64,000 nucleotides of DNA from an uncultured Gammaproteobacteria bacterium (GCA_964408485.1 CAYOZJ010000005.1:13203-77202), one strand, 5' to 3'; shown: positions 4,529-57,200, numbered from the stretch's first letter. The notes: a model not told the origin generated them from the sequence alone. A program made the numbers and translations.

Positions 4529-4650
4529 TTCCCTTCCTTTTTGAACCCTTAACTTTTTTATTAACCCTACTCTACCTTCAACTCTTTGAGCAATTTCTTG
4601 AATTCTCTATCCTATTTGACTTCCATTTTTCTTTTCCATCATAATAAAGC

Positions 4651-5988
4651 ATGGCTATACAACCCGGCACTCCAGAAATTACACCACCTAAAGCTAAAAG
4701 CACCAAGGATACTCCTCCATTAACTCCCTTTCATTCTCAATATGTGGAACGTTTAGGACCTAATGGCGAAATAACCAGGTATCGGCTGCGTCAGTCAGGC
4801 GAAGGAAACTCAGGCAACTTGTATGACCTATCTCATCCTGATGTAGATTTTTGGCGAATAAACCAATATAGAACCCTTATGGAAAACACTATTAAGCCAT
4901 ATAAAGTCTTGAGCTCAAAAATGCATGACATAGAACTTTTTTCCAAACCGGAATCAAGACAGCGCCCTATTGTACAAAAGAACTTACAAGACAGCCTAAA
5001 TCAATTACTTGGAGGAGCAACTATCCTTTCATCAGAAATATCTCGCACCATGCGAGAAGCAACTCAAGAAGGAAGTGTAGCGCTAACTATTGGTTCATTT
5101 TTTAAGCATGTTGCCAATGATGGACCAAGGAGTAATTTAGAAATACCTCTTTCTTGGCTTGCAACATCAAGCTTTGAGGGTTATACCATGGTAGATACTC
5201 TCGCTCGATATGTTTATGGAGTAAAAGCAGAACCGGCTGATATAACAACACAAAGAGAATCTCAACAGCAAGACATACCTCAAAGGCTTGAAAAACTGCT
5301 TGATACACAGATTCCTATGGATGTTTTGAAAAGTGCAGCAGAACGCTTGCGAAAAAATCCAGTAGGCATAACGCTCAGCATGCTTTTGCAAGAAGTAAGT
5401 AGATCTTATCCCCCATTCATGGACAATATTGCAGAAAATCTTTCGAGCCAACAACCAATAGAACAACAGTCTGCCCACCTTATGCTGAAAACTTTTCAAG
5501 AATTTATTGCTACCTATCCTGAACCCATGCTCATAAAAGATCCACCGTGGAAAGAATGGTATAACCGCATAAAAAATAATCGCCTATTGGGAAAACCACT
5601 ATTCTCTCGCCAATCCTTTACACCAGAGGAAATGCTTAAAATACTGATAGGAGCTAAAAGCAGAGATAAAAGCATATCTAAAAAAACAGATCAGTTTATG
5701 AGCGCCTTGCATAATGCACCAAGTCAGGTTGGTAAAATGACTATGAATGATGCAATGGAACAAGTGAAAAAAACTTATCCTGATGGAATAATTCCTGGAA
5801 TAGAAGCTGCTGCAAAAACAAATGCAGCATTAAATAATCAGCCCTTCGAAGGAAGACTTCCTCTCTCACCGAATCAGGAAAGATATATAAGAAGAGTACG
5901 AAAAGAAGACAGAGAGAGCATACGATACTATCTGGAGCAGAATAACTACTTGCTTAATTTGTATCAGAAATATGTAGGCTTATTTTAG
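4651..5988 (+). CDS. Hypothetical protein (445 aa)
   Basis: Long intact ORF; no family recognised. Confidence 0.5.
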   Translation: MAIQPGTPEITPPKAKSTKDTPPLTPFHSQYVERLGPNGEITRYRLRQSGEGNSGNLYDLSHPDVDFWRINQYRTLMENTIKPYKVLSSKMHDIELFSKPESRQRPIVQKNLQDSLNQLLGGATILSSEISRTMREATQEGSVALTIGSFFKHVANDGPRSNLEIPLSWLATSSFEGYTMVDTLARYVYGVKAEPADITTQRESQQQDIPQRLEKLLDTQIPMDVLKSAAERLRKNPVGITLSMLLQEVSRSYPPFMDNIAENLSSQQPIEQQSAHLMLKTFQEFIATYPEPMLIKDPPWKEWYNRIKNNRLLGKPLFSRQSFTPEEMLKILIGAKSRDKSISKKTDQFMSALHNAPSQVGKMTMNDAMEQVKKTYPDGIIPGIEAAAKTNAALNNQPFEGRLPLSPNQERYIRRVRKEDRESIRYYLEQNNYLLNLYQKYVGLF

Positions 5989-6867
5989 ATCCAACTCTTT
6001 GAGGAATTTTTTGAATTCTCCATTCAATTCTTCATGCTCTAGTGCCATTTCTACAACTGTTTTCATATATTCCAGCTTATTTCCCGTGTCATAATACCGA
6101 CCATTTTCTATTTCTACTGCGTACACTGGGACTCCTTGCTTTTCTAGCATATTAATTGCATCAATAAGCCAAATTTCTCCACCTTTTCCCGGCTCAACTT
6201 TTCGCAGTGCTTCAAAAATTTCAGGAGGCAAAATATATGCGCCGTGTGTTGCCAAGTTACTTGGAGCCTCATCTGGCTCTGGTTTTTCTATAATTGCTTT
6301 AATTTTAAATACCTTATCCTCCCCTGGTACAGCTTCCAAATCTGCTATTCCATAGCGCTTGAGGTCTTCTTTTTTATCTATTCTCACGCCGGAAATAACA
6401 ATACCGCCGTATTTTTCGTACACTTCAATCATTTGCTGAAGGCGTGGAGGCTTACTGTAAATAAACTCATCTCCCCAGAGGACGGCAAATGGTTCATTTT
6501 CTATTGTTGGCTCAGCTGCTAAGACCGGTGTTCCATTTCCATACGGACCTTTCTGCCTCACATAAATAAAATTGGCCATTTCAGAAATTCGCTCTGTCTC
6601 TTCAAGAAGCTTCTGCTTTTTTCCCATTTCTAAGTTGGCAATAAGCTCAGCATTTGGCTTGTCAAAATGATCCTCAATTGCTCGCTTAAGCGAGCCTGTA
6701 ACAATAATAATATCCTCTATACCTGATGCAACGGCTTCTTCTACAACATACTGAATAACCGGTTTATCAACTATGGGAAGCATTTCTTTTGGCATTGCCT
6801 TTGTCTGAGGGAGAAATCGGGTGCCAAAACCTGCGGCTGGGATAACGGCTTTGCGTATCTTTTTCAT
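5980..6867 (-). CDS. galU: UTP--glucose-1-phosphate uridylyltransferase
   Basis: N-terminal KAVIPAAGFGTRFLPQTKAMPKEMLPIVDKPVIQY is a classic GalU signature; length fits. Confidence 0.9.
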   Translation of the reverse strand: MKKIRKAVIPAAGFGTRFLPQTKAMPKEMLPIVDKPVIQYVVEEAVASGIEDIIIVTGSLKRAIEDHFDKPNAELIANLEMGKKQKLLEETERISEMANFIYVRQKGPYGNGTPVLAAEPTIENEPFAVLWGDEFIYSKPPRLQQMIEVYEKYGGIVISGVRIDKKEDLKRYGIADLEAVPGEDKVFKIKAIIEKPEPDEAPSNLATHGAYILPPEIFEALRKVEPGKGGEIWLIDAINMLEKQGVPVYAVEIENGRYYDTGNKLEYMKTVVEMALEHEELNGEFKKFLKELDLK

Positions 6868-20223: not shown

Positions 20224-20237
20224 CTTAGTGAATCTTG

Positions 20238-20309: not shown

Positions 20310-20323
20310 ACGTGTGCGCTGAG

Positions 20324-25326: not shown

Positions 25327-25327
25327 A

Positions 25328-25831: not shown

Positions 25832-25874
25832 AAGAGACTTAGAAAGATTCTATCAGTTTTTTATCAAAAATATA

Positions 25875-26237: not shown

Positions 26238-26251
26238 ACTGAACCTGTAAT

Positions 26252-37238: not shown

Positions 37239-38516
37239 CTATTTTCTTCTGAAGAATATAACTAAGGACACAAGAAGTAAGTAATACCCAAGTGTAAAAA
37301 ATATCGGGAGACTGTTGATTTGCACAAGGACTGCATGACCTGCAAAAAATGCGGTAATAGATTGTAAGTACCAAAGAAGTGGAATACACATCCATACAAT
37401 AAGTCTGCCAAGAGGCTCAAGAATTAATCCTATGACTATTCCCACTCCTCCAATAATCATAATAAGCGGAATTGTCCAAAGTACAAGCACATTAGCAAGA
37501 ATAGAAAGCAAAGAATATTGTCCAAAGGTCGCGAGGATAATGGGCAGAGTTGCAGCTTGCGCTGCAAGTGTTGTTGAGAGGTCATCTCCAAGAATTGAAT
37601 GATTAAATAGGCTCGATTTTAGCACTAATATACCCGCAGTTGCTAAAATAGATAATTGAAACCCCACATCAAATAACAGCAACGGACTCCACAAAAGCAT
37701 GGTTGCACCAACAAGAAATAATATATACAACGCGCTATATTGCCTACCAAAAAGCGAGGCTGAAAAAGCAATACTTCCCATAAGTGCAGCACGTACAATA
37801 GATCCTTCAAAGCCAGAAATTGTGACGTACAGAAAAATTCCTCCAATACTTACCACAATCGCCCACTGCCTTTTTAAGAAAGCGCCAAGCAAGCTAATAA
37901 GAAATCCTGCAACAAGTGTTACATTCATTCCAGACGCTGCAACGATGTGTGAAAGTCCAGTGATACGAAATGATCTAGTTATTTGATCTGTTAGTAAACT
38001 TTTGATACCGAAAATAATACCAACGAGTAGGCCAGAGTATGGTTGTGAAAAATTATTTTCACAAAAATCAATTATTTTCTGGCGAAGAGGAGTGAAAAGT
38101 GGTAAAAAACCACTATTTTTAGCCTTAATTTGAGGGTTTTGGATTGTCAGGACAGTCCTTTCATTCTTTAGCAGACTATCAAATAGAGTGCTTGCCACGT
38201 ATAAATGCCCCTCGGGAGTGCGAGGCTGTAAGCCTCCAGACCGAGGTAAATTTTGTATGTGGCCATTTACCTCTAGTGTCTGTCCATACGAAAAGGATTC
38301 ATCACTATTTGTTTTTACTAAAACTTTTGTACTATGCCAAAAGTCTCCAACAGATAGAAAAAACTGTTGACTATTCCCTACCACTTTTGGGTCCTCTAAA
38401 AGAGTAGTAGTAAAAGAAACTTCCTTGTCTGTTGGAAAAGAAAACGGAGTCAAATAAAAAAGCCCAAGACGAAGAAATAAAAAAAGCGTAGTAAAAACAA
38501 TGAAAAATCTATACAT
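37239..38516 (-). CDS. comEC: ComEC/Rec2-family DNA internalization channel protein (no C-terminal MBL domain)
   Basis: N-terminal DUF4131-like OB region followed by the competence-domain motif GLSHIVAASGMNVTL and multiple TM helices. Confidence 0.8.
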   Translation of the reverse strand: MYRFFIVFTTLFLFLRLGLFYLTPFSFPTDKEVSFTTTLLEDPKVVGNSQQFFLSVGDFWHSTKVLVKTNSDESFSYGQTLEVNGHIQNLPRSGGLQPRTPEGHLYVASTLFDSLLKNERTVLTIQNPQIKAKNSGFLPLFTPLRQKIIDFCENNFSQPYSGLLVGIIFGIKSLLTDQITRSFRITGLSHIVAASGMNVTLVAGFLISLLGAFLKRQWAIVVSIGGIFLYVTISGFEGSIVRAALMGSIAFSASLFGRQYSALYILFLVGATMLLWSPLLLFDVGFQLSILATAGILVLKSSLFNHSILGDDLSTTLAAQAATLPIILATFGQYSLLSILANVLVLWTIPLIMIIGGVGIVIGLILEPLGRLIVWMCIPLLWYLQSITAFFAGHAVLVQINSLPIFFTLGYYLLLVSLVIFFRRK

Positions 38517-38583: not shown

Positions 38584-39231
38584 TTAGTATACCGTTATCT
38601 TGTCTTTTATTTTTGCAAAGACGCTATTTGTCACAACCTTTTTTGCTGTTAAATCTTCAATAGCTCCATACGGGCGTCCTGAAATAATTTTTTGCGCAGT
38701 TACCGGACCAATACCCGGAAGACTATCTAATTGCGATTCTGAAGCTGAATTAATGTTTATCAAACCTGTCTGGGCACCCAAAACACTGGATTCCCCTGCA
38801 TTATTCATGCTGCTTACTGCATTTTGCTGGACTTCCCCAACTTTCGGCACATAGATTTTCACTCCATCTGCCAACTTTGCTGCTAAATTAAGTGATTTTG
38901 TTACAACTGCTCTATCTGCATCGCTAGAAAGTCCTCCTGCGGCAATAAGCCCGTCCTGAACCCTGGCATCTCGAGGCAACTTATACACCCCAGGCTTTAC
39001 TACTGCTCCTTCCACATCTACTTGCATTGTCAAAAGAGGGGTAGAGCTTATGGCAGAAGAGCTTGTCTTAGTAGATATTTCCTGTGAAGTAGCCTGCTTT
39101 TCAGAATGTAGCAACTGTATCAAACCAATGCTAAAAAATATCAAACCACCAAGAAAGAGTACTATTGGAAGATAATATGACTTAGGAATATTCCTAAGAA
39201 AATCAAACAGTTTTTCAGACAACTGCTCCAT
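38584..39231 (-). CDS. comEA: ComEA competence protein (TM anchor, SLBB domain, tandem helix-hairpin-helix)
   Basis: ININSASESQLDSLPGIGPVTAQKIISGRPYGAIEDL HhH motif; immediately upstream of comEC on the same strand. Confidence 0.85.
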   Translation of the reverse strand: MEQLSEKLFDFLRNIPKSYYLPIVLFLGGLIFFSIGLIQLLHSEKQATSQEISTKTSSSAISSTPLLTMQVDVEGAVVKPGVYKLPRDARVQDGLIAAGGLSSDADRAVVTKSLNLAAKLADGVKIYVPKVGEVQQNAVSSMNNAGESSVLGAQTGLININSASESQLDSLPGIGPVTAQKIISGRPYGAIEDLTAKKVVTNSVFAKIKDKITVY

Positions 39232-39237
39232 GGAAAT

Positions 39238-39267
39238 AGCGTAAAGGGTAAAGCGTTAAGGGTCAAG
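39238..39267. repeat. C-family repeat copy (agcgtaaagggtaaagcgttaagggtcaag)
   Basis: Related copies at 1758-1790 and, in reverse orientation, 48986-49012. Confidence 0.6.
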
Positions 39268-39345
39268 AGAGAAAAACGAAAAATGTCAAATAGGATATGA
39301 GAATGTATAAAAGTTAAGAATTTTTATAGACATCGAGGTTTAGAT

Positions 39346-39591
39346 TTAAGAGTTAGGACTCCTCCCTTGTTTTGCGGAGACTCTTCTCTGTTTTCTCTCA
39401 ACTTTTATACCCGTAGATAATCTCAATTCTTGTAATGTGTTCCATATAGAATCAAGTGCAGCATCAAATAGAATATCGTCTGGGATAGTAGGATCATTCA
39501 AAATGCGCCTACTACGGGCAAGTTGTCTTCTAATCGTTCTTAAATCTTTTACTGCTTCTTTTTCCCAAGGAGATGGTTCTGATGATGACAT
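39346..39591 (-). CDS. Small hypothetical protein (81 aa), type-B member of a tandem pair
   Basis: Shares the pattern DLRTIRRQLARSRRILNDPTIPDDILFDAALDSIWN with the ORF at 40087-40308. Confidence 0.4.
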   Translation of the reverse strand: MSSSEPSPWEKEAVKDLRTIRRQLARSRRILNDPTIPDDILFDAALDSIWNTLQELRLSTGIKVERKQRRVSAKQGRSPNS

Positions 39592-39620
39592 ATAGGCATC
39601 CTACTGTTTTAAAAAATAAA

Positions 39621-39660
39621 TTTCAACAAACAAAATTAACTATTTTCCCAGGCACGTAGG
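39621..39660. repeat. leuS-3'-end-like repeat copy E3
   Basis: tttcaacaaacaaaattaactattttcccaggcacgtagg, nearly identical to 40640-40669 inside leuS. Confidence 0.8.
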
Positions 39661-39666
39661 ATACCT

Positions 39667-39939
39667 CTAAGAATTTTGATAAAAACTCCTTCCACTTGGC
39701 AATATTATCTTCTTCTTACCTGTCTGAAGATCTGTTTCAACAACTGTTATTCCATTTGTTCCATATAAACGCGTAGTACGCTTCTGGTCTGTTGTTATCG
39801 CATGGAAAATAACATCCCCGTGACTATTAGATTCCACCTCGTGCATAACTTTTTTGCCATTTATAGAAATTGCTCTTCTCTTGCGGCGATCATCAACTAG
39901 TTTCCAGAGCTCTAAGGGCTTTCTTGGTAATTCTGACAT
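39667..39939 (-). CDS. Small hypothetical protein (90 aa), type-A member of a tandem pair
   Basis: ORF; weak similarity to the ORF at 40383-40601 (GD.IF..I...QKRTT vs GDRWIFYSDGTHSV). Confidence 0.4.
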   Translation of the reverse strand: MSELPRKPLELWKLVDDRRKRRAISINGKKVMHEVESNSHGDVIFHAITTDQKRTTRLYGTNGITVVETDLQTGKKKIILPSGRSFYQNS

Positions 39940-40003
39940 CTTGTCATTAAAGCATTTTTACCTGAGGAGGTCAAAGGTAAATGAAGCTAAAAAGTCTTAG
40001 ATG

Positions 40004-40033
40004 ACAAAATTCAAAATCTTTCCAGGCACGTAG
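40004..40033. repeat. leuS-3'-end-like repeat copy E2
   Basis: acaaaattcaaaatctttccaggcacgtag. Confidence 0.75.
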
Positions 40034-40086
40034 ATGAATCTAGAAAAAACCTTTCATTCCCTTCCTATGCTTTTCCACTTCTTTTC

Positions 40087-40308
40087 TTAGGAGGGATTGA
40101 ACGTCTTCCTTGTAGCTCTATACCTTATACCTATACGTATACTGTTTTCCCATATTGGATGAGAAAGAAGTCTTATCGCAGCACCAAGCTGCTCATCTAC
40201 ATTAGCTTTAGGGTTGTTTAATGTATCCCTATCCTCAGCAATTTCGCTTCGTACATCTGCTAGTTGTTCTTCTAGGGTTTTCTTAGAATGGGTTTGTTCT
40301 GTTGTCAT
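40087..40308 (-). CDS. Small hypothetical protein (73 aa), type-B member of a tandem pair
   Basis: LADVRSEIAEDRDTLNNPKANVDEQLGAAIRLLSHPIWEN parallels the ORF at 39346-39591. Confidence 0.4.
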   Translation of the reverse strand: MTTEQTHSKKTLEEQLADVRSEIAEDRDTLNNPKANVDEQLGAAIRLLSHPIWENSIRIGIRYRATRKTFNPS

Positions 40309-40340
40309 GCTTGCAATACTAATGTTTTAAGGAATAATTT

Positions 40341-40367
40341 TCAATACACAAAATTGAGAATTTCTCT
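40341..40367. repeat. Degenerate leuS-3'-end-like repeat copy E4
   Basis: tcaatacacaaaattgagaatttctct. Confidence 0.4.
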
Positions 40368-40382
40368 ATAAAAATGAAGAAG

Positions 40383-40601
40383 TTACTTATTTTTGAGTAA
40401 ATCTATCGTAATTCTCTTGCGAGGTGTTATTGTTATGTCAGACACAACTCTTCCCGTACTTGTCCTTCTTCTGTGTATAACACTATGTGTTCCATCTGAA
40501 TAGAATATCCACCGATCTCCGTTATCATATTGTCCAGTAGCCACCTGATGTACTTTTTTTGAGGCCTCTTGGTGGCTATTTATATCTTCTTGCGACATCA
40601 T
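40383..40601 (-). CDS. Small hypothetical protein (72 aa), type-A member of a tandem pair
   Basis: ORF directly downstream of leuS. Confidence 0.4.
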   Translation of the reverse strand: MMSQEDINSHQEASKKVHQVATGQYDNGDRWIFYSDGTHSVIHRRRTSTGRVVSDITITPRKRITIDLLKNK

Positions 40602-40629
40602 GCAAGTATAACTTAAGTAAAGGATAAGA

Positions 40630-43317
40630 TCAAAATACTACAAAATTAACTATTTTCCCAGGCACGTAGATAACTTTTCTTACTGTCTTTCCTTCTAAAT
40701 GAGCTTTTACTTTCCCTGATGCCTGTGCTGCTTGTTCTATATCAGATTGCTTCGCATCGCTCGCAATGACGAGAGTGTCGCGGAGTTTTCCATTAATTTG
40801 GACCGCGACCGTAACTGTATCAGAAACTATCAAACTATCATCGTGGCTAGGCCACTTCTCCTGATGAATTGACGTAAATGCCTCATCTCCAGCCTCACTA
40901 TCAGTAAGCTTATTCAACTGCCAAAGCTCTTCTGTTATATGCGGAGCAAACGGGGACAAGATAATCAGAAAATTCTTGAATTCTTCCTCCATAATTTGAG
41001 GCTTAGCATCTAAATAATTAAGCCACTTCATCATTGCTGCAACAGCTGTATTATTTTTTATATCTGCAATGTCTTCCCCAACCTTTTTTATGGCTGTATG
41101 CATCTGAAAGAGATCTTCTCTTGTCATTCCATTTATTGCCTGAGCTTGTCGAAGGCCCTCCCCGACCAAACCTTTCGATTCGCTTCGCTCACTCAGGGAA
41201 GAATTAACAACCCTTGGATACAAGTCCCAAACACGCTTGAGGAAGCGAAACATCCCGTACATTGCTGTTGTTGACCATGGCCCTGTTGCCTGGTACGGCA
41301 TCATAAAAGATAAATAGACACGCACAGCATCTGTACCAAACTCTTTAACAACATCATCCGGATTGATCACATTACCCTTGGACTTACTCATCTTATTGCC
41401 ATCTGGACCCAAAACAATGCCATGCTGAACACGCTTAAGGGCAAATTCATCAAAGTCCACCATACCTAGGTCTTTAAAGAATTTTGTGAAAAATCGTGCG
41501 TAAAGAGTGTGTCCCAAGGTATGCTCTCCCCCTCCAAAATAAATATCTAAAGGCATAAGCTTCGCAACCTCTTTAGGATCAAATGGACCTTTTGTGTACT
41601 GAGGATCAACATATCGGTAGTAATACCAAGCACTATCGAAAAATGTGTCTAATGTCTCTGGATCACGCTTTGCCTCACGTCCACATTTTGGACAAGCTAC
41701 TTTTAGCCACTCGCTATTACTTTCCAAAGGCGCTTTTCCTTTTGGCTGATAATCAACATCGTAGGGAAGATTTACTGGTAAATCTTTTAATGGTACCGGA
41801 ACCATTCCATCTATATCGCAATATATCATTGGAACGGGTGTTCCCCAATATCTTTGGCGACTAACAGACCAATCTCGAAGATGATATTGAATTTTTCTCT
41901 TACCAATGCCTTTCTGCTCTATCTGTTGAGTCATCTTTTCTTTTGCATCCTTACTGCTTAAAGCATTGAATTCTCCTGAATTAAATAATTCTGATTTCTC
42001 TTTATATGTTGTTTTTATTTCTGAATAGCTCCAGAATCCTTCTTCTTCTACTTTGGCACCATCTTCTGTTGGTTTAACTACAAATGTAATTGGTAAATTA
42101 AATTTTTCCGCGAATTCATGATCACGCTCATCATGACCAGGAACACCCATAACTGCACCTGTTCCATAGTTCATTAAAACGTAATCCGCAACCCAAACAG
42201 GAACTTCTTCATTAGTAAAGGGATTAATGACATACCCACCTGTAAAAACACCTGTTTTATCTTTTGTTTCAATGAGTCTATCACGCTCTGTCTTTTCTGA
42301 AGCGTCTTTAACATAGGCTTGAACTTCTTTTTTTATCGTGTCGTCCTTAACTTGTTTTAGAATCTCGTCAACTAATGGATTCTCAGGCGCTAAGACAACG
42401 AAGGAAACGCCAAAAATAGTATCCAGGGCTGTGGTAAATACTTCAATTTTGAATTTTGAATTTTGAATTTTGAATTCGAGCTGAACGCCTTCAGATCGTC
42501 CTATCCAATCATTTTGCGCTGTCATGACGGATTTTGGCCAGTCTACCCCATTACCATCTTTATTCCATAAAAGTTGTTCTGCATAGTCTGTAATGCGTAA
42601 AAACCACTGCTCTACTTCCTTTTGCACAACGGTATCGCCACATCTCCAGCATTTCCCATTTTCTACATGCTCATTGGCAAGGACTGTTTGGTCTGTTGGG
42701 CACCAATTGGAAAGCGTCTTGCCTCTATAAGCAATTCCTTTTTCATACATTTTTTCAAAAATCCATTGATTCCAAATATAATATTCAGGCAGACATGTTA
42801 CAGTTACATGATCCCAATCAATCATTGTACCCATGGTCTCGAATTGCATAGTCATGGTCTCTATATTCTTGAGCGTCCAGTCTTGTGGGTGAATATTACG
42901 CTTGATTGCTGCGTTTTCTGCAGGAAGACCGAAAGCATCGTATCCCATGGGGAAGAAAACATTATAACCTTGCATACGCTTAAAACGAGAGAGCACATCT
43001 GGGGCAACGAAGGTAAACCAATGACCAATATGTAAATCTCCTGAAGGATATGGAAGCTCAACAAGCGTATAAAACTTACCCTTCGATTTCCTAGACTCAG
43101 GACTAGGTTCGCCGAACCGTCGCACTTGCTCACTCAGGGAAAATTTTTTGCCTGAGCTGTGCCGCTTCGGGGAAGCAAATACTGAGTCGAGTGTCGAAGG
43201 CTTATCGCTATTACTGTCAAACTTGTATAGCCCTGCCTCACGCCACACGTCTTGCCATTTCTTTTCTATGTCCTTTGGAAAATATTTTTTCCATTCTGAT
43301 TGCGCTTGCTTATTCAT
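40630..43317 (-). CDS. leuS: Leucine--tRNA ligase
   Basis: HIGH (DLHIGHWFTF) and KMSKS (KMSKSKGN) motifs; 895 aa. Contains in-frame repeat insertions A3 (41139-41201) and A2 (43121-43201), a B-like segment (40745-40785), and the heptanucleotide repeat at 42445-42472. Its last ~30 coding nt (40640-40669) are the E-repeat. Confidence 0.95.
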   Translation of the reverse strand: MNKQAQSEWKKYFPKDIEKKWQDVWREAGLYKFDSNSDKPSTLDSVFASPKRHSSGKKFSLSEQVRRFGEPSPESRKSKGKFYTLVELPYPSGDLHIGHWFTFVAPDVLSRFKRMQGYNVFFPMGYDAFGLPAENAAIKRNIHPQDWTLKNIETMTMQFETMGTMIDWDHVTVTCLPEYYIWNQWIFEKMYEKGIAYRGKTLSNWCPTDQTVLANEHVENGKCWRCGDTVVQKEVEQWFLRITDYAEQLLWNKDGNGVDWPKSVMTAQNDWIGRSEGVQLEFKIQNSKFKIEVFTTALDTIFGVSFVVLAPENPLVDEILKQVKDDTIKKEVQAYVKDASEKTERDRLIETKDKTGVFTGGYVINPFTNEEVPVWVADYVLMNYGTGAVMGVPGHDERDHEFAEKFNLPITFVVKPTEDGAKVEEEGFWSYSEIKTTYKEKSELFNSGEFNALSSKDAKEKMTQQIEQKGIGKRKIQYHLRDWSVSRQRYWGTPVPMIYCDIDGMVPVPLKDLPVNLPYDVDYQPKGKAPLESNSEWLKVACPKCGREAKRDPETLDTFFDSAWYYYRYVDPQYTKGPFDPKEVAKLMPLDIYFGGGEHTLGHTLYARFFTKFFKDLGMVDFDEFALKRVQHGIVLGPDGNKMSKSKGNVINPDDVVKEFGTDAVRVYLSFMMPYQATGPWSTTAMYGMFRFLKRVWDLYPRVVNSSLSERSESKGLVGEGLRQAQAINGMTREDLFQMHTAIKKVGEDIADIKNNTAVAAMMKWLNYLDAKPQIMEEEFKNFLIILSPFAPHITEELWQLNKLTDSEAGDEAFTSIHQEKWPSHDDSLIVSDTVTVAVQINGKLRDTLVIASDAKQSDIEQAAQASGKVKAHLEGKTVRKVIYVPGKIVNFVVF
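42445..42472. repeat. Tandem heptanucleotide repeat (aattttg) x4 inside leuS
   Basis: Direct reading; encodes LEFKIQNSKFKIEVF. Confidence 0.8.
43121..43201. repeat. A-family palindromic repeat element inserted in frame in leuS
   Basis: Near-identical to 28975-29060 in argS. Confidence 0.85.
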
Positions 43318-48214: not shown

Positions 48215-51200
48215 ATGGAATATTTACAAAAGTTTAGAATTTATTTACTTTCATTAACACCTGCACCGTCAGCAGTAACTGTGAAAAATTACTGCTTAGA
48301 CGTGAAGCACTTTATTTCGTGGTCAGAACAGAAAAATCACGCACCCTTCGATCCATCAAAAGTTACCCAGGATGAAATAGAAAAGTTTCGACAGGATGAG
48401 AATGGACATCTCTCTGCTCGCTCACTCGATAGGCACGTATCAAGCTTACGAAAATTCTTCCACAGCCTTAAATTACAAGGCGTATTATCAACAAGTCCAT
48501 TTGAAAATACAGTATCTACTCAATTACCAACAGATCCCTACAAGCTAAAACAATTCAAAGATTTCCTTTATGTCTATAACGCAAGTAATCTAACTATAAA
48601 AAACTACATCATTGATGTGAAGCAGTTTTTCAAATGGGCAGAGGAAAAAATTCAAGCTCAGACAGACCAGGAGTCTGAAGAAATTACCCCTCTTTCCTAC
48701 CTAAGTAATGACCTTTTAGCCACATACCGAGATGAATTATTCTCAGGAAATGTTTTCTCAGCCTCATCTATCAACCGAAAGCTCTCTTCTCTTCGCAAGT
48801 ATATTGGCTGGGCAAAGTCACAAAATTTCTTGGAAAACGAATTAGACTCCCGTAATAATCCAAACGAAGTAGCAAACATAGCTAGCGCTCACACTTCTAG
48901 CGTGCTAGAAGTGAATCAGAACAAAGCGGAAAGCGAAAAGCGTAAAGAATTAGAAACCAAAAAAGAAGCAAATGGGAAAAACCTTGACGCTTTACCCTTA
49001 ACGCTTAACGCTGGTTACTCTCCTTTTCCTCCTCTTCGTCTTGCTCAAAAGATATCAAAAGGATTCAATTATGGTTTGGACGTTGCTATTATCGCTCCTC
49101 TTGCTAAGCTCGTATTGCAAGGTACAAAAGTGCTCTGGACACTCCAAGGAAAACCTCTTTTTGTTGCAGCAAAGAAATCATTAAGGCTAGCAAGTCCTGT
49201 GAAAAATATATCTAAGTTTGCAGTACAGGCTGGAGAAGTTTCCACAGCTAACTTTTCATGGTATCAAAAAATTTGGCATCACGCACAAAACACACGACCT
49301 AACTGGTACAGAAGATATCATCAACTACCAGTCGCCCATTATTTTAACTGGGCGATACTCATGATTGTTATGACAATCATTGGTGTTGGTTTTTATAATA
49401 GCTTTATTGCAAAGCCACAGAATAGTAAACCACTTTTAGCAGCAGCCCAACCAAACAGAATTCTTTCTTTCCAGGGTAGACTTACTGATAGCAGCAATAA
49501 TCCAATCACCACTTCTTCAAATTTGCGGTTTGCTATTTATACAGACGCAACTTCAACAGGTTCTGCCCAACTATGGCAAGAATTAGACAATGTTACGCCG
49601 GATGCTAACGGCGTATTTTCTGTTTTGCTTGGAAAAAACAGTAGCATTCAACAATCGCTCTTTGCTAATAATGCGAATTTATATTTGGGTATTACTGTCG
49701 AACAGACACCCGAGCTCACTCCTCGCCAACAACTCGCAACAGTTGCCTATGCGACCAACGCAGAAACACTCCAAGGTCTACCACCTATCACCCAGTCTGG
49801 CGCGGGAACAAGCAATGTCGTCCTCGCACTAAATTCTTCTGGTAATTTATCCATTGGTGCAGCATCCACTTTTCAGACCGTTGGTGGCGCATTTACGCTT
49901 GCTGGAGATACGCTTGTCTTAAATACCAATCCCGGTACAAATGGTAACATAACCATAACCCCAGACGGCCTAGGTTTTATAGATTTGCAAAAGCCACTTG
50001 TTAATACAACACAAAACAATAACATTCCATCAGCTTCAGGCTCTGTGGAAATTGATGATACGCTTGCAATTCTTGCAACATCAGATGCTGTCCCTGCCCA
50101 AACAATTAATCAAGACGGTGCAGGTGCACTTTTCACAGCTTCAGCTGGAGGTATTAGTAAATTCACCATTGGCAATTCAGGGACAATAACTGCCAGCAAT
50201 TACAATACAGCAGGTGGCGTTTTTTATGCAGATGGTACTGGTCTTTTTCTCCAAACAACAGCAGGCGCGATTGGCCAATGTCTTACATCTAATGGATCTT
50301 CTGGTCCAAGCTGGACAGCATGTAGTGGTGGATCTGCAAACAACTTTTGGACAATTACAAATGGCGCATTGTATCCAGTGAATACAACACTTGATGTCCT
50401 CTTTGGCGGAACTGCATCAAATGGCGCTAATTTTGCCTTTATTAACAACGCACCAGGATCCGGCACACCAACAGCATCTGTTTCAGGAAATATTACGCTT
50501 AATAGCGCAGGCCTCATTCAGACAACAAATAACCAACAGCTGACTATTGGCGGCGATACGACAGGCAATATCGTCCTCAAGCCATTGAATGGTGCAGGAA
50601 CTGTTACCTTATCTGGCTACGCAACAGGAATAATTCATTCAACGTCTGGAGTTTTATCTTCAAGTGCTGTTGACTTGGCAAGCGGAGATGTAACTGGTGT
50701 GTTGCCTTTAGCAAATGGGGGTACAAATAATAGCTTGGTTGCAGATAATGGTGGCATCGTCTATTCAGACGCAACAAGACTTCAAGTTTTGGCGCATGCG
50801 GGATCTGCAGGACTTTGTCTTACCTCTGGTGGCGCAGGCGCCCCAAGCTGGGCGAGCTGTTCGGGAAGTAATTCCAACTTCTGGAATGTAAATAACGGCG
50901 TCATTTACCCAAGCAATTCAACGCTTGATTTTATTTTGGGTGGAGACGGCGCAACAACATCTGCAAAATTTGCAGTCCTGAATATGACAGGTTCTGGAAC
51001 ACCAGTTGCATCAGTAAGTAGTGGTTTGAATGGAAATGCTACATATATCGCAGCAGATGGAACACTTCAGACAACAAGAAACCATGCGCTAACAATTGGC
51101 GGAAGCACAACTGGAAACATAATCCTTAGCCCGCTTAACAGCTTGGGATATGTCCAACTAAATGGAACAGTCAATTCTAATCTTGTCCCAACAATCACTG

Positions 51201-54200
51201 ACACCTATAACTTGGGCTCACCAAGTAATGAATGGAATAACTTATATGTTAAAAATCTTGTTGTCTCAGGAAGCATCGCAGGATTTTGGCAAAGAAATTC
51301 AGGTGTCCTCTCCCCTACCAATATTACAGACGACTTAGCGATTGGCGGTATAGCAACAAATACTGCAAGATTCCAAGTCTTTGCAAATACAGGCAATGCA
51401 ACAACTGCAGGTAATTTAACTTTCACCGGAAATGGTAGCCAAATTCAGACAACAAGTAACCAAACTCTCACTCTTGGAGGAAATACCACAGGAGGTATCG
51501 TGTTATCTCCAAGTAATGGAACAGGCACAATTGGTCTCAATGCAAGCAACATAACAACAAATCAAACAACTGTAAATCTTCTCAACACCACAGCAACAAC
51601 GGTTAATTTTGCAGGCGCTGCAACAACAGTAAGTATTGGCAATTCAGGAGGATCTACAACAATCAATGGCGGTTTAGTGGTAAATGCAGACACACAGCTT
51701 CTTGGCAATACAACGTTAGGCGACAGCTCATCTGACACAATTGCCTTTATTGGCCAAGTAAATACCAATATTCTCCCTTCCACAACAAATGCTCGTGATC
51801 TTGGCTCCCTTGCTCAACAATGGAATAATATTTATGGAAATCACATTTTTAGCAATGGTGTTGAATTGTCCCAATTCTTCCAGAGAAATTTTGGCGTTAT
51901 ATCCCCATTGAATATCACTGACGACTTAGCTGTCGGTGGAACAGCAACAAATACTGCTAAATTTCAGGTATCTGGCTTAACAGGCAATGCAACAACTACG
52001 GGTACACTTACGTTTGATGGGACGGGTAACCTTATCCAGACAACTAAATTCCAGGATTTAACAATTGGTGGGACAACAACTGGAAATATTACACTCAGTC
52101 CAAAAAATGGAACAGGCACAGTTACCATTGCAGGGCTGTCATCGGGTGTAGTACATAGTACCGGGGGCATCCTCTCTTCAAGTAACGTAAACTTAACCAG
52201 TGAAGTAACCGGTATCCTTCCTATTGCCAATGGAGGCACAAATACTAATACAATAGGTTCGGCAGGAAGCATTGCCTACTCAACCGGTACTGCATATGCA
52301 TTTAATTCAGTGGGATCCACAGGTCAATGTCTTGTATCTAATGGATCTGGAGCCCCTAACTGGACATCATGTACTACTGCAGCAGGCGCAACAAATTACT
52401 GGACACTCGATGGCGGCAATGGAATTTTGTATCCTGTTAATACAACACTTGATGTGTTGTTTGGTGGAACATCGAGTAACTCTGCTAATTTTGCATTTCT
52501 TAATAATGCACCAGGATCTGGTACACCAACTGCATCCATTTCCGGTAACTTAACTCTCAATAGCGCTGGAAACATTCAAACAACAAATAACCAACCACTG
52601 ACCATTGGCGGCAATACAACGGGAAGTGTTACCTTAGCGCCAAGCAATGGAAATGGAACGCTCAATCTTAATGCTACAAATATTAATACAAATCAGACAA
52701 GTGTAAATCTTCTCAACACAACAGCAACAACAATTAATTTTGGAGGTGCAGCAACAAGTATTAATATCGGTAATGCAGGAGGCTCAGCAACATTTAATGG
52801 CGGGCTTGTCGTCAATGCAGATACAACGCTTAACGGCAACACAACCTTAGGAGATAGCTCGAGTGATCGAGTCACTTTTAACGGACTAGTGAATTCAAAT
52901 ATCATTCCATCTGCAAATAATACCTATGACTTAGGCTCAATCACGAATGCATGGAATAATATTTTTGTTAACAACATTATCTCAAGTGGCAACATATCAG
53001 GACTTTGGCAAAGATTTTTGGGAGTCCTATCCCCTGTTAATATTGGCGATGACTTAGCAATCGGTGGGACAGCAACAGGTACAGCCAAATTTCAAGTGTT
53101 TGGTAACACTGGCAATGCAACAACTGCAGGTAATCTCACATTTAATGGCAATGGAGTAATTCAAGCAACAAATAATCAACCTCTTACGATTGGCGGAGAT
53201 ACAACAGGCAGTATAACAGTAGCGCCTAATAATGGTACTGGCACAGTAAATCTTAACGCTACAAATATTAATACCAATCAAACAAGTGTAAACCTACTTA
53301 ATTCTACTACTACAGCAATTAATTTTGGAGGTGCAGCAACTGCGCTTTCAATCGGTGCAGGATCTGGAACAACAACAGTTAATAATGGTCTCACAGTTAC
53401 CGGAACAAGCACCTTAAATGGCAATGTTGTTTTGGGAGCAAATAGTACCAAAACAATTACCGCAAACGGACAGTTTAATTCCTCTCTTATTCCATCAGTA
53501 ACCGATACTTACGATTTAGGATCAATTGCACTTGAGTGGAATAATCTGTATGTTAAAAATATTATTGCAGGGGGCAATGTATCTGGATTTTGGCAGAGAT
53601 TCTTGGGAGTTATTTCTCCAACAAATATCACGGACGACTTAGCAATTGGTGGAACAGCAACAAATACAGCAAGGTTCCAGGTTTTTGGAAATACAGGCAA
53701 TGCAACAACTACAGGTACACTTACTTTTGATGGGACCGGTAGCCTTATCCAGACAACACGAAACCAAGGCCTAACAATTGGAGGAGATACAACAGGAAAT
53801 ATTACGATAAAACCACTCAATGGAACAGGAACAGTCACTATTGCAGGACTTGGGACAGGAGTAGTACATAGCACAAATGGACTTCTTTCTAGTAGTGCAG
53901 TGAATTTAGCAAATGGCTCAGCAGATATAACTGGAACTCTTTCAACAAGTAATGGCGGTACGGGACAAAATTCATACGCTGGCGGCGATCTTCTGTATTA
54001 TGCATCCGGAACATCTTTATCCAAACTCACTATTGGCGGCGCAAATACAATCCTCACATCAACCGGCACAGCTCCACAATGGTCAAGTAGCCTCACACTT
54101 GGAGGCAACTTAAATGTGAATGGTAACACAACGCTTGGAGACACCGCTGGGGATACGATAACCTTTAATGGTCAAGTTAATTCCAATATTATCCCAACAA

Positions 54201-57200
54201 GCAGTAATGCATTTGATTTAGGATCCATAACCAATGCATGGAACAATTTGTACGTTAACAACATTATCTCAAGCGGTAATATCTCAGGATTCTGGCAAAG
54301 AAATTCTGGCGCACTTTCCCCTGCTAATATTACCGACGATCTTTTAGCAGGCGGTACAGCAACAAGTACAGCAAAGTTTGCAGTCTTAAATATGGCAGGA
54401 GGTACACCTGTTGCTTCTATTTCTTCAGGACTTTCTGGAACAGGACTATATCTCTCAGCAGATGGAAGTATCCAAACAGTAAGAAATCAAGGTCTAACAC
54501 TTGGTGGGGCAACAACGGGAAATATCATTCTCTCTCCACTTGGCGGAACAGGAACAGTAACAATAAATGGCCTTGGAACTGGCATTGTCCACAGTACAAC
54601 GGGGGTACTCTCAAGTAGTGCAGTAAATTTAGCAAATACAGATGTCACAGGAATTTTGCCTTTGGCAAATGGAGGAACAAATGCAAACCTTACCGCAGAT
54701 AATGGCGGCATAGTCTACTCAGATGCTTCTAAGTTGCAGATATTGGCTCATGCAGGCACAGTTGGACAATGTTTGGTAAGCGGCGGATCAGGAGCACCAA
54801 GCTGGACAAATTGTAGTAGTGCCTCGCAAAATTGGTGGAATGTAAATAATGGCGCACTCTTTCCTATCAATTCAACGCTTGATCTTCTCTTAGGTGGAGA
54901 CGGCGCAACAACATCTGCAAAATTTGCAGTACTCAATATGACTGGGAGTGGCACACCAACTGCATCAGTAAGTAGTGGTTTGAATGGAAATGCAACATAC
55001 ATTACAGCAGATGGAACACTTCAAACAACACGCAACCAAGGACTGACGATTGGAGGCGCAACAACAGGAAATATTACGCTTTCTCCTCTTAATGGTGGAA
55101 GTGTAAGTACAATCAATCTTAATGCCAGGACACTTGCAACCAACCAAACGACGGTCGATCTGCTTAACACAACGGCAACAAGTATTAACTTTGGAGGAGC
55201 AGCAACCTCTCTTTCTATTGGAAATTCAGGTGGAACAACAACAGTCAATGGTGCCTTAGCCGTAAATGGCAATACCAACTTAAATGGCAATACAACAATT
55301 GGCGACAACGCATCAGATACCATTGCATTTACTGCACATGTTAACTCCAGCATCCTTCCCAGCACTGATACAACCTATGACTTAGGAAGTGGTTCGCTTA
55401 GGTGGAATAATGTCTATGCTGGCAATCTCATTCTTCCTGTTACAGGCGGAATCGATGGCTATTGGACACTTGCCTCAAGTGTTCTATCACCAACAAATAC
55501 GTGGAATGATTTAGTAATAGGCGGAACGTCAACAAGCAGCGCTAAATTCCAAGTATTTTCCAATACAGGTAATGCTACAACGTCTGGTAATTTGACATTC
55601 AATGGCAATGGAACAATTCAGACAACGAATAATCAGCCACTTACTCTTGGTGGCAACAGTACAGGTAATATCATTCTTTCCCCAAATAACGCAGCAGGAT
55701 CGGTAACAGTTAATGGATTTATAAGCAGTAATCTTATTCCATCAAGAAATGATACGTATGACTTAGGCTCTGGGACAAATGAATGGAATAACTTGTATGT
55801 TAAAAACATTATCTCGACCGGTAATTTAGCAGGATTCTGGCAGAGAAATTCTGGCACACTCGCTCCCCTTAATATTAGTGATGATTTGCTCGCCGGTGGA
55901 ACAGCAACAAGTACAGCGCGATTTGCTGTGCTTAATATGTCTGGCCCTGGTACACCAACAGCATCTGTTAGCTCAGGACTTTCTGGCACTGGTATGTATT
56001 TTGATGCCAATGGAACAATCCAAACAGTCAGAAACCAAGGCTTGACTCTTGGTGGGGCGACAACGGGAAATATCACACTTTCACCTCTTAATGGAAGTGG
56101 AATAGTAACAGTGAATGGGACAAGTTTGCTGAGCTCTGGAACATCATTTAACTTGCTTACTGGCGCAACAACAATTTCCATCGGCGCAGGGTCCGGAACA
56201 ACAACAGTTAATAACGGCCTAACTGTTACCGGAACAAGCACATTAAATGGCAATGTCGTATTAGGCGCGAGCAGTAGTCAAACAATCGCAGCAAATGGTC
56301 AATTTACAACAAGTCTTATCCCAAATACTGACGCGTCATTTGATCTTGGATCTAGTCCATCCAATAGATGGAGAAACCTTTTCCTGTCTGGTAATTCAAC
56401 AGTTGGTGGCAATGAAACAGTTACCGGAACAGCAACAGTTGGTAATTTAGTTTTGGCATCAACTGCTAATTATGGCGGGTTCTGGCAGAGATTTAGCGGT
56501 GCACTCTCCCCTGTTTATTCAACAGATGATATTCTTGTAGGGTCAAATGCAACAACATCTGCAAAGTTTGCACTTTTAAACATCGCAAATGGCACACCTG
56601 TTGCTTCTATTTCATCAGGTTTTTCTGGAACAGGCATGTACTTTGATGCAACTGGGACTATTCAAACAGTGAGAAATGCAGTACTTACTCTTGGCGGCAA
56701 TACAACAGGTGGAGTAGTATTTGGCAGTAATGTTGCATCAAATATTCTGCCAAAGTTTACTAATACCTATGATTTGGGATCACTTGCTCTTCAGTGGAAT
56801 AATGGATATTTCAACAATATTTATGCAAATGGTCAGCCCATAACACAACTATTCCAAAGAAATTCTGGCGCACTTTCCCCTCTCAATATTACTGATGACT
56901 TACTCTTGGGTGGCACAGCAACAAGTACTGCTAGATTTGCATTTATTAATAACACTGGGACAGGCGCACCAACTGCTTCTATCTCAAGTAACTTCTCACT
57001 TGTTGTCCCAACAGGCGCAGCACCAGCAGAAACAATTAATGTCTTAAATGGTGGAAGTCTTAATATTCAACACTCAGCAGGTGGAGACACAGGACTCACA
57101 AGTTCACTCTTTATAGACAAAGCAGGACAAGTTGGTGTTGGGACAGCAAGTGTATCTCATCAGCTTGAAATTGCCGGAAGTTCAACGCAATTTAATTCAA

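What the first reader, a model, noticed from the sequence alone, without database searches (positions are those of the whole stretch)
39346..40669. Tandem array of two small-gene pairs, each followed by a copy of the leuS 3'-terminal sequence
Directly downstream of leuS are four small ORFs of 72, 73, 90 and 81 aa in the order A-B-A-B. The two B proteins share a clear motif pattern (L..VR..I...R..LN[DN]P......[ILV]..A....[IL].....W.N) and the two A proteins share weaker similarity, so a two-gene module appears to have been duplicated in tandem. A copy of the ~30-bp sequence acaaaattaactattttcccaggcacgtag, which is the last 10 codons of leuS itself (40640-40669), recurs after the stops of the small ORFs at 40004-40033 and 39621-39660, with a degenerate copy at 40341-40367. 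A repeated gene 3' end is the classic footprint of site-specific integration that reconstitutes its target, or of cassette-like serial insertion. The module could be a toxin-antitoxin or defence-type gene pair, or a novel small mobile cassette that uses the leuS end as its attachment or terminator sequence.
Basis: partly seen in the sequence, partly recalled or inferred. Interest (0 to 1): 0.75.

Follow-up and report, generated by a model that had tools for sequence, protein, structure and literature searches.

The report
Mini gene cassettes stacked behind leuS
In an uncultured Patescibacteria genome, four tiny genes of unknown function sit between leuS and comEA. Each has its own promoter, and leftover copies of the last codons of leuS separate them, which looks like foreign DNA inserting again and again at the end of an essential gene.

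Summary
The repeats are real. The last ~30-40 nt of leuS recur intact after B1 (83% identity) and after A2 (30/30 nt identical). The last ~16-20 nt recur after A1. A possible fifth copy after B2 is not significant. All copies keep the LeuS reading frame and a stop codon.

Most relatives (Microgenomates) have comEA 0-60 nt after leuS, which is the empty site. Two other genomes carry a different unknown gene, or genes, between leuS and a leftover leuS tail. In this window a galU-like gene shows the same pattern around a 445-aa gene, and a second organism shares that arrangement.

Differences between each live gene end and its leftover copy fall mainly on third codon positions (17/26, p=0.0008). 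The copies therefore diverged as working gene ends in separate lineages. This argues against local duplication followed by decay.

Each cassette is a leuS tail, a promoter and a leaderless ORF. In three of the four window cassettes and in L006, the tail's TGA stop lies inside the -35 box.

B1 and B2 are homologous alpha-hairpins. A1 and A2 are not detectably homologous; A2 is predicted as a beta-meander. None has relatives in billions of proteins. No toxin-antitoxin or defence signal and no integrase were found in the window.

Best reading: Campbell-type accretion of integrase-less mini-cassettes at the leuS 3' end.

The parts
40630..43317 (-). leuS (895 aa), intact. It ends ...KVIYVPGKIVNFVVF*. 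Its last ~40 nt (40630-40677) are the live copy of the repeated tail.
   Evidence: ORF list. 40-71% identical to the LeuS of 80 genomes. C-terminal motif conserved in relatives.
40605..40633 (-). Promoter-like site of A1: TTGATC-17-TATACT. Its -35 box overlaps the leuS TGA stop. It ends 3 nt before the first ATG of A1 and 6 nt before the adjacent second ATG.
   Evidence: Promoter scan; sequence.
40383..40601 (-). Cassette gene A1 (72 aa), with no relatives found.
   Evidence: No homologue other than itself in 5.8 billion proteins. No Pfam, PHROGs, NCBIfam or PADLOC family; the only Pfam traces are far below cut-off, e.g. Tcp10_C at E=0.06.
40341..40367 (-). Partial leftover leuS tail after A1. 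It reads ..EILNFVY* in the leuS frame. Only the 3' ~16-20 nt of the tail are present.
   Evidence: 48-nt repeat D2 shared with the region upstream of B2, 38/48 matches against a shuffle maximum of 32; sequence.
40316..40344 (-). Promoter-like site of B1: TTGAAA-17-TAGTAT. The -35 box contains the TGA stop of the leftover tail. It ends 7 nt before the ATG.
   Evidence: Promoter scan.
40087..40308 (-). Cassette gene B1 (73 aa), homologous to B2.
   Evidence: BLASTP E=6e-4; shuffle p<0.0005. No other homologue found.
39997..40037 (-). Leftover leuS tail after B1. It reads FIYVPGKILNFVI*. The core is 83% identical to the live tail, and 6 of its 8 differences are at the third codon position.
39946..39974 (-). 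Candidate promoter of A2: TTGACC-17-TTTAAT, ending 6 nt before the ATG.
   Evidence: Read by eye. The scan tool did not flag it because its rule requires A at position 2 of the -10 box.
39667..39939 (-). Cassette gene A2 (90 aa), predicted as an all-beta seven-strand meander.
   Evidence: AlphaFold2 pLDDT 84. Best fold matches are the SET7/9 MORN domain, the OspA single-layer sheet and the SAS-4 TCP domain, all weak at E 0.04-0.5. No homologues.
39623..39666 (-). Leftover leuS tail after A2. It reads SYVPGKIVNFVC*. 30/30 nt (39630-39659) are identical to the live tail.
39598..39626 (-). Promoter-like site of B2: TTGAAA-17-TAGGAT. The -35 box contains the TGA stop of the leftover tail. It ends 6 nt before the ATG.
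   Evidence: Promoter scan.
39346..39591 (-). Cassette gene B2 (81 aa), predicted as a two-helix hairpin with an LN[DN]P turn.
   Evidence: AlphaFold2 pLDDT 89, helices 8-31 and 38-75. Only generic alpha-hairpin fold matches, all E>=1. No homologues in 5.8 billion proteins or 1.84 billion representatives.
39302..39340 (-). Possible very degenerate fifth tail copy after B2 (..SIKILNFY..). Tentative.
   Evidence: PWM score of 8.4 lies within the shuffle range. Only its position supports it.
38584..39231 (-). comEA (SLBB + HHH_3 domains). In most relatives this gene directly follows leuS.
   Evidence: Pfam. tblastn shows comEA 0-60 nt after the leuS stop in most relatives.
5980..6867 (-). Second case of the same pattern: a galU-like nucleotidyl transferase ending EFKKFLKELDLK*.
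   Evidence: Pfam NTP_transferase; tail-duplication scans.
4651..5988 (+). 445-aa gene of unknown function inserted between the galU end and its leftover copy.
   Evidence: One homologue at 76% identity, on ENA contig L163, has the same flanks.
4566..4607 (-). Leftover galU tail reading EFKKLLKELKVE*, with the stop codon at the same position as in the live tail.

Best explanation
The leuS-comEA junction of this Microgenomates (Patescibacteria) genome is an insertion hotspot. It has accreted four very small (0.3-0.4 kb), integrase-less, single-gene cassettes.

Proposed mechanism (inferred): each incoming unit carried, at its 5' side, a short copy of the LeuS C-terminal coding sequence (about 12-18 codons plus a stop). 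Directly after that came a sigma-70-type promoter and a leaderless ORF. Integration was Campbell-type. A circular form recombines with the chromosomal leuS tail, through a recombinase acting in trans or through RecA on the ~30-55-nt homology. leuS is then completed by one tail copy, and the other copy is left downstream of the cargo. Repeating the process stacks cassettes separated by leftover tails.

Shown:
- the repeats and the reading frame they preserve;
- empty sites in relatives;
- independent occurrences with different cargo;
- the separate-lineage origin of the tails;
- the promoter architecture.

Inferred: the circular intermediate, the enzyme, and the order of events.

The cargo consists of lineage-specific small proteins: two homologous alpha-hairpins (B1, B2), one beta-meander protein (A2) and A1. 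Their function is unknown. Accessory or niche-specific roles are a guess.
For: 1. Three clear tail copies and one partial copy, all in the leuS frame and all ending in a stop codon.
2. comEA starts 0-60 nt after leuS in most of ~80 relatives with usable flanks, which is the empty site.
3. L006 has leuS, a 107-aa gene of unknown function, the leftover KVIYVPGKILNFVV*, then comEA. L028 has leuS, 1.55 kb holding two genes of unknown function, then the leftover YKVIYVPGKILNFVIE*.
4. The same pattern occurs at a galU-like gene in this window and in a second organism.
5. Differences between live tail and leftover concentrate on codon position 3: 13/19 for leuS (p=0.002) and 17/26 with galU included (p=0.0008). 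Stop codons are retained. This fits divergence under coding constraint in separate genomes.
6. The tail stop TGA lies inside the -35 hexamer of the next gene's promoter for A1, B1, B2 and the L006 cassette. L083 has a strong promoter 2 nt after the stop. The tail, promoter and ORF therefore travel as one unit.
7. The 48 nt upstream of B1 and B2 are 79% identical, while the coding regions are ~50% identical in DNA and 24% in protein. This is a conserved junction-plus-promoter module with fast-evolving cargo.
8. An independent assembly confirms the array.
Against: - No tyrosine or serine recombinase lies in the 64-kb window. The only integrase-related hit is a pair of SAM-like N-terminal domains on a giant surface-type protein.
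- No free attP-bearing element was found. There were zero matches to the tail pattern, or to A2 and the B profile, in IMG/VR, and none to the region's DNA in the phage or plasmid collections.
- The left boundaries of the leftover tails vary from about -7 to -18 codons. That is looser than a single site-specific system would give.
- Leftover tail quality does not fall steadily with distance from leuS, as simple newest-nearest accretion with neutral decay would predict. The copy after A1 is the shortest and the copy after A2 is perfect.
- Only 3 of ~105 leuS loci show the duplication.
- Synonymous-site conservation of the tail across species is not significantly raised.
Confidence: 0.55

Rival explanations
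1. One or two primary insertions produced leuS-A-tail-B-tail. Unequal crossing-over between the flanking tail repeats then amplified the A-B unit in tandem. After that the proteins diverged strongly, and gene conversion kept some tails identical.
For: B1 and B2 are homologous, and so are their 48-nt upstream segments. The gene order alternates. Direct repeats of 30-40 nt are substrates for unequal recombination. Tandem arrays and RecA-mediated rearrangements at shared attachment sites are documented for SXT/R391 (PMC5812530).
Against: - A1 and A2 are not detectably homologous.
- The leuS-to-A1 and tail-to-A2 spacers are not clearly related, nor are the segments after B1 and after B2.
- The tail after B1 differs from the live tail mostly at third codon positions, which in-situ decay does not predict.
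- This rival still needs the primary insertion mechanism.
Confidence: 0.2
2. The insertions come from natural transformation with DNA of related strains. The leuS coding region acts as a one-sided homologous anchor and the other end joins illegitimately (homology-facilitated illegitimate recombination). The join happens to fall just upstream of the recipient's leuS stop, so the recipient's tail survives as a leftover.
For: The genome encodes the uptake genes comEA and comEC right next to the site. The leftover left boundaries vary from -7 to -18 codons, as illegitimate joins would. The tails come from different lineages. No integrase was found.
Against: Seven independent junctions all fall within the last ~20-55 nt of the target gene: window leuS x3, the partial copy, L006, L028 and galU. 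That is not expected from random illegitimate joining unless selection is strong. This mechanism normally deletes recipient DNA rather than duplicating it (my own knowledge, not tested here).
Confidence: 0.15
3. The small genes form toxin-antitoxin or anti-phage defence pairs (A+B), and that function explains why they are kept at this locus.
For: The genes are small, adjacent, fast-evolving and located in a variable, apparently mobile region. A2's fold matches are MORN-like beta-hairpin repeats, and from memory some immunity or antitoxin proteins use such repeats.
Against: - No match in PADLOC, Pfam, NCBIfam or PHROGs.
- Each gene has its own promoter and the genes are separated by 75-150 nt rather than translationally coupled.
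- L006 carries a single unrelated cassette.
- B is a plain helical hairpin.
Confidence: 0.08
4. The array is an assembly artefact: strain variants were joined through the shared 30-nt repeat.
For: The source is a metagenome assembly. Contigs of the closest relatives break at or just after the leuS tail (L082 ends exactly where the repeat starts; L001 and L083 end 579 and 254 nt after leuS), so this locus is hard to assemble.
Against: An independent Logan contig covers A1 (partial)-B1-A2-B2 at 100% identity across three repeat copies. The units between the repeats are all different. Analogous structures exist in independently assembled L006, L028 and L163.
Confidence: 0.02

Closest known systems
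Tandem accretion of integrative elements at the 3' end of a housekeeping gene, including integrase-less att-flanked derivatives (ICESt1-related elements and their cis-mobilizable relatives at fda; SXT/R391 arrays in prfC)
   Same: The target is the end of a conserved protein-coding gene, and the gene stays intact. Direct repeats derived from the target bound each unit. Several units stack at one site, and some units carry no recombinase. (Pavlovic 2004 and Hochhut 2001 are listed in PMC5812530. Details of the integrase-less relatives are from my own knowledge.)
   Different: The units here are 0.3-0.4 kb with a single ORF and its promoter, 10-100 times smaller than those elements. No integrase, relaxase or other mobility gene is visible anywhere in the window. 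The repeat boundaries vary. The host is Patescibacteria.
SCCmec and pseudo-SCC composite islands at the 3' end of rlmH (orfX)
   Same: Serial insertion at the last codons of a conserved gene, with short direct repeats between the stacked elements. Some elements lack their own recombinase. (My own knowledge; SCC-type islands are mentioned in PMC10581047.)
   Different: SCC elements are kilobases long and depend on Ccr serine recombinases. Their repeats are ~15 bp rather than 30-55 bp coding tails. No ccr-like gene is present here.
Phage 21 / e14 integration into icd, and tRNA-gene integration in general
   Same: The incoming element carries a substitute 3' end for the target gene. The displaced original end remains as a leftover on the far side. 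(My own knowledge.)
   Different: Those are whole prophages or islands that carry their own integrase. Here the cargo is one small gene and the event is repeated four times.
Integron gene-cassette arrays
   Same: Arrays of compact, mostly single-ORF units. Most encode proteins of unknown function, and a recurring short sequence separates the units.
   Different: There is no intI nearby. The separator is a host gene tail and not an attC hairpin. The cassettes carry their own promoters. See the membership test.

Membership tests
Integrative elements accreted at a gene 3' end (att-flanked, possibly integrase-less) | Each element is bounded by direct repeats derived from the target gene end. | tested here: met
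   Tail copies lie after A1 (partial), B1 and A2; none is proven after B2. L006, L028 and galU show the same pattern.
Integrative elements accreted at a gene 3' end (att-flanked, possibly integrase-less) | The target gene remains intact (reconstituted). | tested here: met
   leuS is a full 895-aa ORF with the conserved ..VIYVPGKIVNFV.. C-terminus.
Integrative elements accreted at a gene 3' end (att-flanked, possibly integrase-less) | Related genomes have an unoccupied site. | tested here: met
   comEA starts 0-60 nt after the leuS stop in most relatives.
Integrative elements accreted at a gene 3' end (att-flanked, possibly integrase-less) | A cognate site-specific recombinase is present in cis or in trans. 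| tested here: not met
   None among the ORFs of the 64-kb window that I inspected or scanned. Only catalytic-domain-less Phage_int_SAM domains occur, on a 5231-aa protein. The rest of the genome was not available.
Integrative elements accreted at a gene 3' end (att-flanked, possibly integrase-less) | Excision to a circular form, or site polymorphism within a population. | not testable with these tools
   Only one sample holds these exact proteins. No reads were available.
Integron cassette array | An adjacent intI integrase with attI. | tested here: not met
   The neighbours are leuS, a DUF2000 protein, comEA and comEC.
Integron cassette array | attC sites: imperfect inverted repeats at every cassette boundary. 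| tested here: not met
   The inverted-repeat search found no hairpin recurring at the boundaries. The recurring element is a direct repeat of coding sequence.
Integron cassette array | Cassettes are mostly promoterless and expressed from a common promoter. | tested here: not met
   Promoter-like sites end 3-7 nt before three of the four start codons, and a fourth was seen by eye.
Type II toxin-antitoxin or known defence system | Sequence membership in a known toxin, antitoxin or defence protein family. | tested here: not met
   Pfam, PHROGs, NCBIfam and PADLOC give nothing above noise.
Type II toxin-antitoxin or known defence system | Growth arrest by one partner that is relieved by the other. 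| not testable with these tools
   This needs an experiment.
In-situ tandem duplication of a two-gene module | Both genes of unit 1 are homologous to their counterparts in unit 2. | tested here: not met
   B1/B2 are homologous (p<0.0005). A1/A2 are not (p=0.30).
In-situ tandem duplication of a two-gene module | Repeat copies differ by unconstrained decay. | tested here: not met
   Differences are biased to the third codon position: 13/19 and 17/26.

The most novel reading that the evidence does not exclude
Patescibacteria may have a class of recombinase-free 'tail cassettes'. These would be minimal mobile units made only of a promoter, one ORF, and a 30-55-nt copy of the conserved C-terminal coding sequence of an essential gene (leuS, galU). 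They would loop in and out of genomes by homologous recombination on that portable homology, perhaps after natural DNA uptake. This would act as an integron-like route for the flow of lineage-specific genes in streamlined genomes, with no dedicated integrase.
Probability: 0.15. Interest if true: 0.75.

Novelty: new variant of a known kind. Interest (0 to 1): 0.5.

Why it matters
Patescibacteria (CPR) genomes are small and hold many lineage-specific genes, and how they gain such genes is poorly understood. This locus gives a concrete, repeatable footprint of gene gain: single promoter-bearing genes inserted at the end of an essential gene, each bounded by a leftover copy of the gene tail. The footprint is seen at two genes and in at least four genomes. 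If the cassettes prove mobile without their own recombinase, that would be a minimal form of mobile DNA and a practical marker for recent gene gain in uncultured bacteria. If a trans-acting integrase is responsible, the locus is an unusually small-scale example of the known accretion of elements at gene 3' ends.

Tried and rejected
- **Terminator or RNA motif.** No Rfam match (E<=1) and no tRNA in the region. No terminator-like hairpin at the repeats.
- **Homologues of the cargo.** The B profile and the A profile each found only themselves in 5.8 billion proteins. The B profile against 1.84 billion representatives gave only itself plus three very weak hits in large proteins, probably not true relatives. 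Local tblastn against 80 loci gave nothing. A2 and the B profile had no relatives in IMG/VR, and the region's DNA matched nothing in the phage and plasmid collections.
- **Free attP-like tail in viral contigs.** Zero matches.
- **More cases of leuS-tail duplication.** None in 75 metagenome loci. Inserts without leftovers in other lineages (L117, L025, L023, L005, L116) turned out to hold a conserved ~150-aa gene, which is a different native gene order rather than a cassette.
- **Fifth tail copy after B2.** Not significant.
- **Conserved 3'-end motif of the cassettes.** The alignment is unconvincing. Only a shared 12-mer, TCTTCATTTTTA, links the A1 cassette and the L006 cassette (E=0.05).
- **Raised synonymous conservation of the tail across species**, which traffic of tails would predict. 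There is a trend in L006, L083 and L084, but it is not significant.
- **Strain variants through exact-protein look-ups.** Only one sample for B2 and ComEA; no record for LeuS and A1.
- **Fold searches.** Generic alpha-hairpin matches for B2 and weak single-layer beta-sheet or MORN-type matches for A2. No functional assignment.

Full report
**What is in the sequence**

All features are on the minus strand. leuS (43317..40630, 895 aa) ends ...KVIYVPGKIVNFVVF*. Four ORFs follow it:
- A1: 40601..40383, 72 aa
- B1: 40308..40087, 73 aa
- A2: 39939..39667, 90 aa
- B2: 39591..39346, 81 aa

After these come comEA (39231..38584) and comEC (38516..37239).

The 30-nt leuS end (40640-40669) recurs at two places:
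- 30/30 nt identical at 39630-39659, after A2.
- 83% identical at 40004-40033, after B1.

A weight matrix built from these three copies scores them at 49-52 bits. The best score in 20 shuffled windows was 15, and no other site in the 64 kb stands out.

The 'degenerate copy' after A1 is real but partial. Only the last ~16-20 nt of the tail are present (AAATTCTCAATTTTGT..). They sit inside a 48-nt repeat shared with the region upstream of B2 (38/48 matches; shuffle maximum 32). A candidate fifth copy after B2 is not significant.

Read in the leuS frame, the copies give FIYVPGKILNFVI*, SYVPGKIVNFVC* and ..EILNFVY*. Each keeps the frame and ends in a stop codon within three codons of NFV.

An independent Logan contig from run SRR9179560 matches 40519..39238 at 100% and crosses three copies. 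The array is therefore not a mis-join.

**The small proteins**

B1 and B2 are homologous (BLASTP E=6e-4; p<0.0005 against shuffles). A1 and A2 are not detectably homologous (E=12; p=0.30). The 'duplicated A-B module' is only half supported.

B2 is predicted with confidence (pLDDT 89) as a two-helix hairpin, and only generic hairpins match it. A2 is predicted (pLDDT 84) as a seven-strand beta-meander. Its weak fold matches are single-layer sheets: the SET7/9 MORN domain, OspA and the SAS-4 TCP domain.

None of the four matches any Pfam, PHROGs, NCBIfam or PADLOC family. None has a homologue other than itself and its partner:
- The A and B profiles were searched against 5.8 billion proteins.
- The B profile was also read against 1.84 billion representatives.
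- The B profile and A2 were searched in viral contigs.

**Architecture of each unit**

Promoter-like sites end 3-7 nt before the start codons:
- A1: TTGATC-17-TATACT
- B1: TTGAAA-17-TAGTAT
- B2: TTGAAA-17-TAGGAT
- A2: TTGACC-17-TTTAAT, seen by eye only

The transcripts would therefore be leaderless. For A1, B1 and B2, the TGA stop of the preceding tail copy lies inside the -35 hexamer.

The 48 nt upstream of B1 and B2 are 79% identical, whereas the coding regions are ~50% identical in DNA. The natural unit is thus 'tail + promoter + ORF', 305-375 nt long.

**Relatives**

LeuS places the organism in Patescibacteria/Microgenomates. Its best matches are 71% (L001), 66% (L006) and 62% (L002) identical.

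In most of ~80 loci with usable downstream sequence, comEA begins 0-60 nt after the leuS stop. That is the empty site.

Some other lineages hold a conserved ~150-aa gene between leuS and comEA. This is a different native gene order and not a cassette.

Two genomes repeat the pattern with unrelated cargo:
- L006: leuS (..KVIYVPGKILNFVVS*), a TTGACA-17-TATTAT promoter whose -35 box contains the leuS stop, a 107-aa gene of unknown function, the leftover KVIYVPGKILNFVV* (39/41 nt identical), then comEA.
- L028: leuS, 1.55 kb holding two genes of unknown function on the opposite strand, then the leftover YKVIYVPGKILNFVIE*.

Among 277 ORFs of at least 150 aa in the Patescibacteria loci, only leuS ends are duplicated downstream. 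None of 75 further metagenome loci shows the duplication.

The closest relatives, L001 and L083, also have non-comEA genes of unknown function straight after leuS. L083 has a strong TTGACT-16-TATAAT promoter there. Their contigs end soon after leuS. L082 ends exactly where the repeated tail begins. This fits a locus that is repetitive or polymorphic in the population, but does not prove it.

**A second target in the same window**

A galU-like gene (6867..5980) ends EFKKFLKELDLK*. About 1.37 kb downstream, at 4607-4566, lies a leftover reading EFKKLLKELKVE*, with its stop at the same position. A 445-aa gene of unknown function sits on the other strand in between.

Its only homologue (76% identity) is on an ENA contig. 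That contig shows the same two flanks: the live end KELDLG* and the leftover EFKKFLKELELD*.

**Origin of the copies**

Between each live tail and its leftover, differences concentrate on third codon positions:

| Pair | Differences at codon position 1 / 2 / 3 |
|---|---|
| Window leuS vs after-B1 | 2 / 0 / 6 |
| L006 | 0 / 0 / 3 |
| L028 | 2 / 2 / 4 |
| galU | 3 / 0 / 4 |

The totals are 13/19 at position 3 for leuS (p=0.002) and 17/26 overall (p=0.0008).

Copies that had decayed after a local duplication would not show this bias. The copies must have diverged while each was a working gene end, in different lineages, and were then brought together. Foreign DNA carrying its own tail has therefore been integrated.

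**Mechanism**

The simplest process that leaves direct repeats of the shared segment on both sides of an insert is a single crossover between a circular molecule and the chromosome (Campbell-type). This step is inferred.

I could not decide whether a site-specific recombinase or general homologous recombination does the joining. Three observations bear on it:
- No recombinase is in the window.
- No free element with a tail was found.
- The left edges of the leftovers vary from about -7 to -18 codons.

The last point fits homology-driven or illegitimate joining better than one strict att core.

The quality of the leftovers is also not ordered by distance from leuS. Gene conversion, unequal crossing-over between tails, or cassettes of different provenance must therefore be invoked. 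Unequal crossing-over may have contributed to the alternating order, but the lack of A1-A2 homology argues against a simple pair duplication.

**Comparison with known systems**

The behaviour resembles several known cases:
- tandem accretion of integrative elements at the 3' end of housekeeping genes (ICESt1-type elements at fda, SXT/R391 arrays in prfC; PMC5812530);
- SCC elements at rlmH;
- phage 21 / e14 at icd (the last two from my own knowledge).

It differs in scale (0.3-kb single-gene units), in the absence of any mobility gene, in its repeat boundaries and in its host phylum.

It is not an integron. There is no intI and no attC hairpin, and the cassettes carry promoters. Nothing supports a toxin-antitoxin or defence identity.

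**Verdict**

The repeats are real and the integration-type reading is largely right. The duplicated-pair and toxin-antitoxin ideas are not supported. I rate it a new variant of a known kind, with moderate interest (0.5). The more novel reading is recombinase-free 'tail cassettes' as a route of gene flow in Patescibacteria. The evidence does not exclude it, and read-level and population data could test it.

Noticed in passing
window 4566-6867: A galU-like gene has its last 12 codons plus stop duplicated 1.37 kb downstream, with a 445-aa gene of unknown function on the opposite strand in between. A 76%-identical homologue on ENA contig L163 has the same flanks.
   Followed up: yes
window 24931-26662 (minus strand): Four tandem paralogous small HTH proteins (142, 167, 120 and 136 aa; 19-29% identical; HTH_23/HTH_38-type) lie directly downstream of a 423-aa gene (26665-27936). 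No repeated gene tail separates them.
   Followed up: partly
window 48215-63910 (plus strand): A giant 5231-aa repetitive protein begins with two Phage_int_SAM-type (integrase N-terminal) domains. No catalytic integrase domain was seen. Antisense ORFs inside it caused false hits in my tail-duplication scans.
   Followed up: partly
window 14917-15264 and 20462-21019: Two proteins match the '23S rRNA intervening sequence protein' family (PF05635): one clearly (E=5e-18) and one weakly. The weak one lies next to the tRNA-Arg and tRNA-Pro genes at 20237-20395.
   Followed up: no
L082 (end of contig), L001 and L083: Contigs of the closest relatives break at the leuS tail. L082 ends exactly at the first base of the repeated segment. 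L001 ends 579 nt and L083 254 nt after leuS, and both have non-comEA genes there. This suggests a repeat or strain polymorphism at this locus in other populations.
   Followed up: partly
window 40369-40380 and L006 2466-2477: An identical 12-mer, TCTTCATTTTTA, lies just after the stop codon of the A1 cassette and of the unrelated L006 cassette. In each case it is a few bases before the leftover tail (blastn-short E=0.05). It could be a shared cassette-end signal or chance.
   Followed up: partly
window 39232-40633; L006 2106-2142; L083 793-827: Genes here appear leaderless: the -10 box ends 3-7 nt before the ATG and there is no Shine-Dalgarno sequence. The upstream gene's TGA stop is repeatedly embedded in the -35 hexamer (TTGAnn) of the next promoter.
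   Followed up: partly
L117, L025, L023, L005, L116 (between leuS and comEA): Other Microgenomates lineages hold a conserved ~150-aa protein (..WLLSRLDxLWSNYF..NPVFIxFGRxS..) between leuS and comEA. This is an alternative native gene order. The family was not identified.
   Followed up: no
L006 2528-2760: About 230 nt of comparatively GC-rich non-coding sequence lie between the leftover leuS tail and comEA. Not examined for an RNA or a decayed gene.
   Followed up: no
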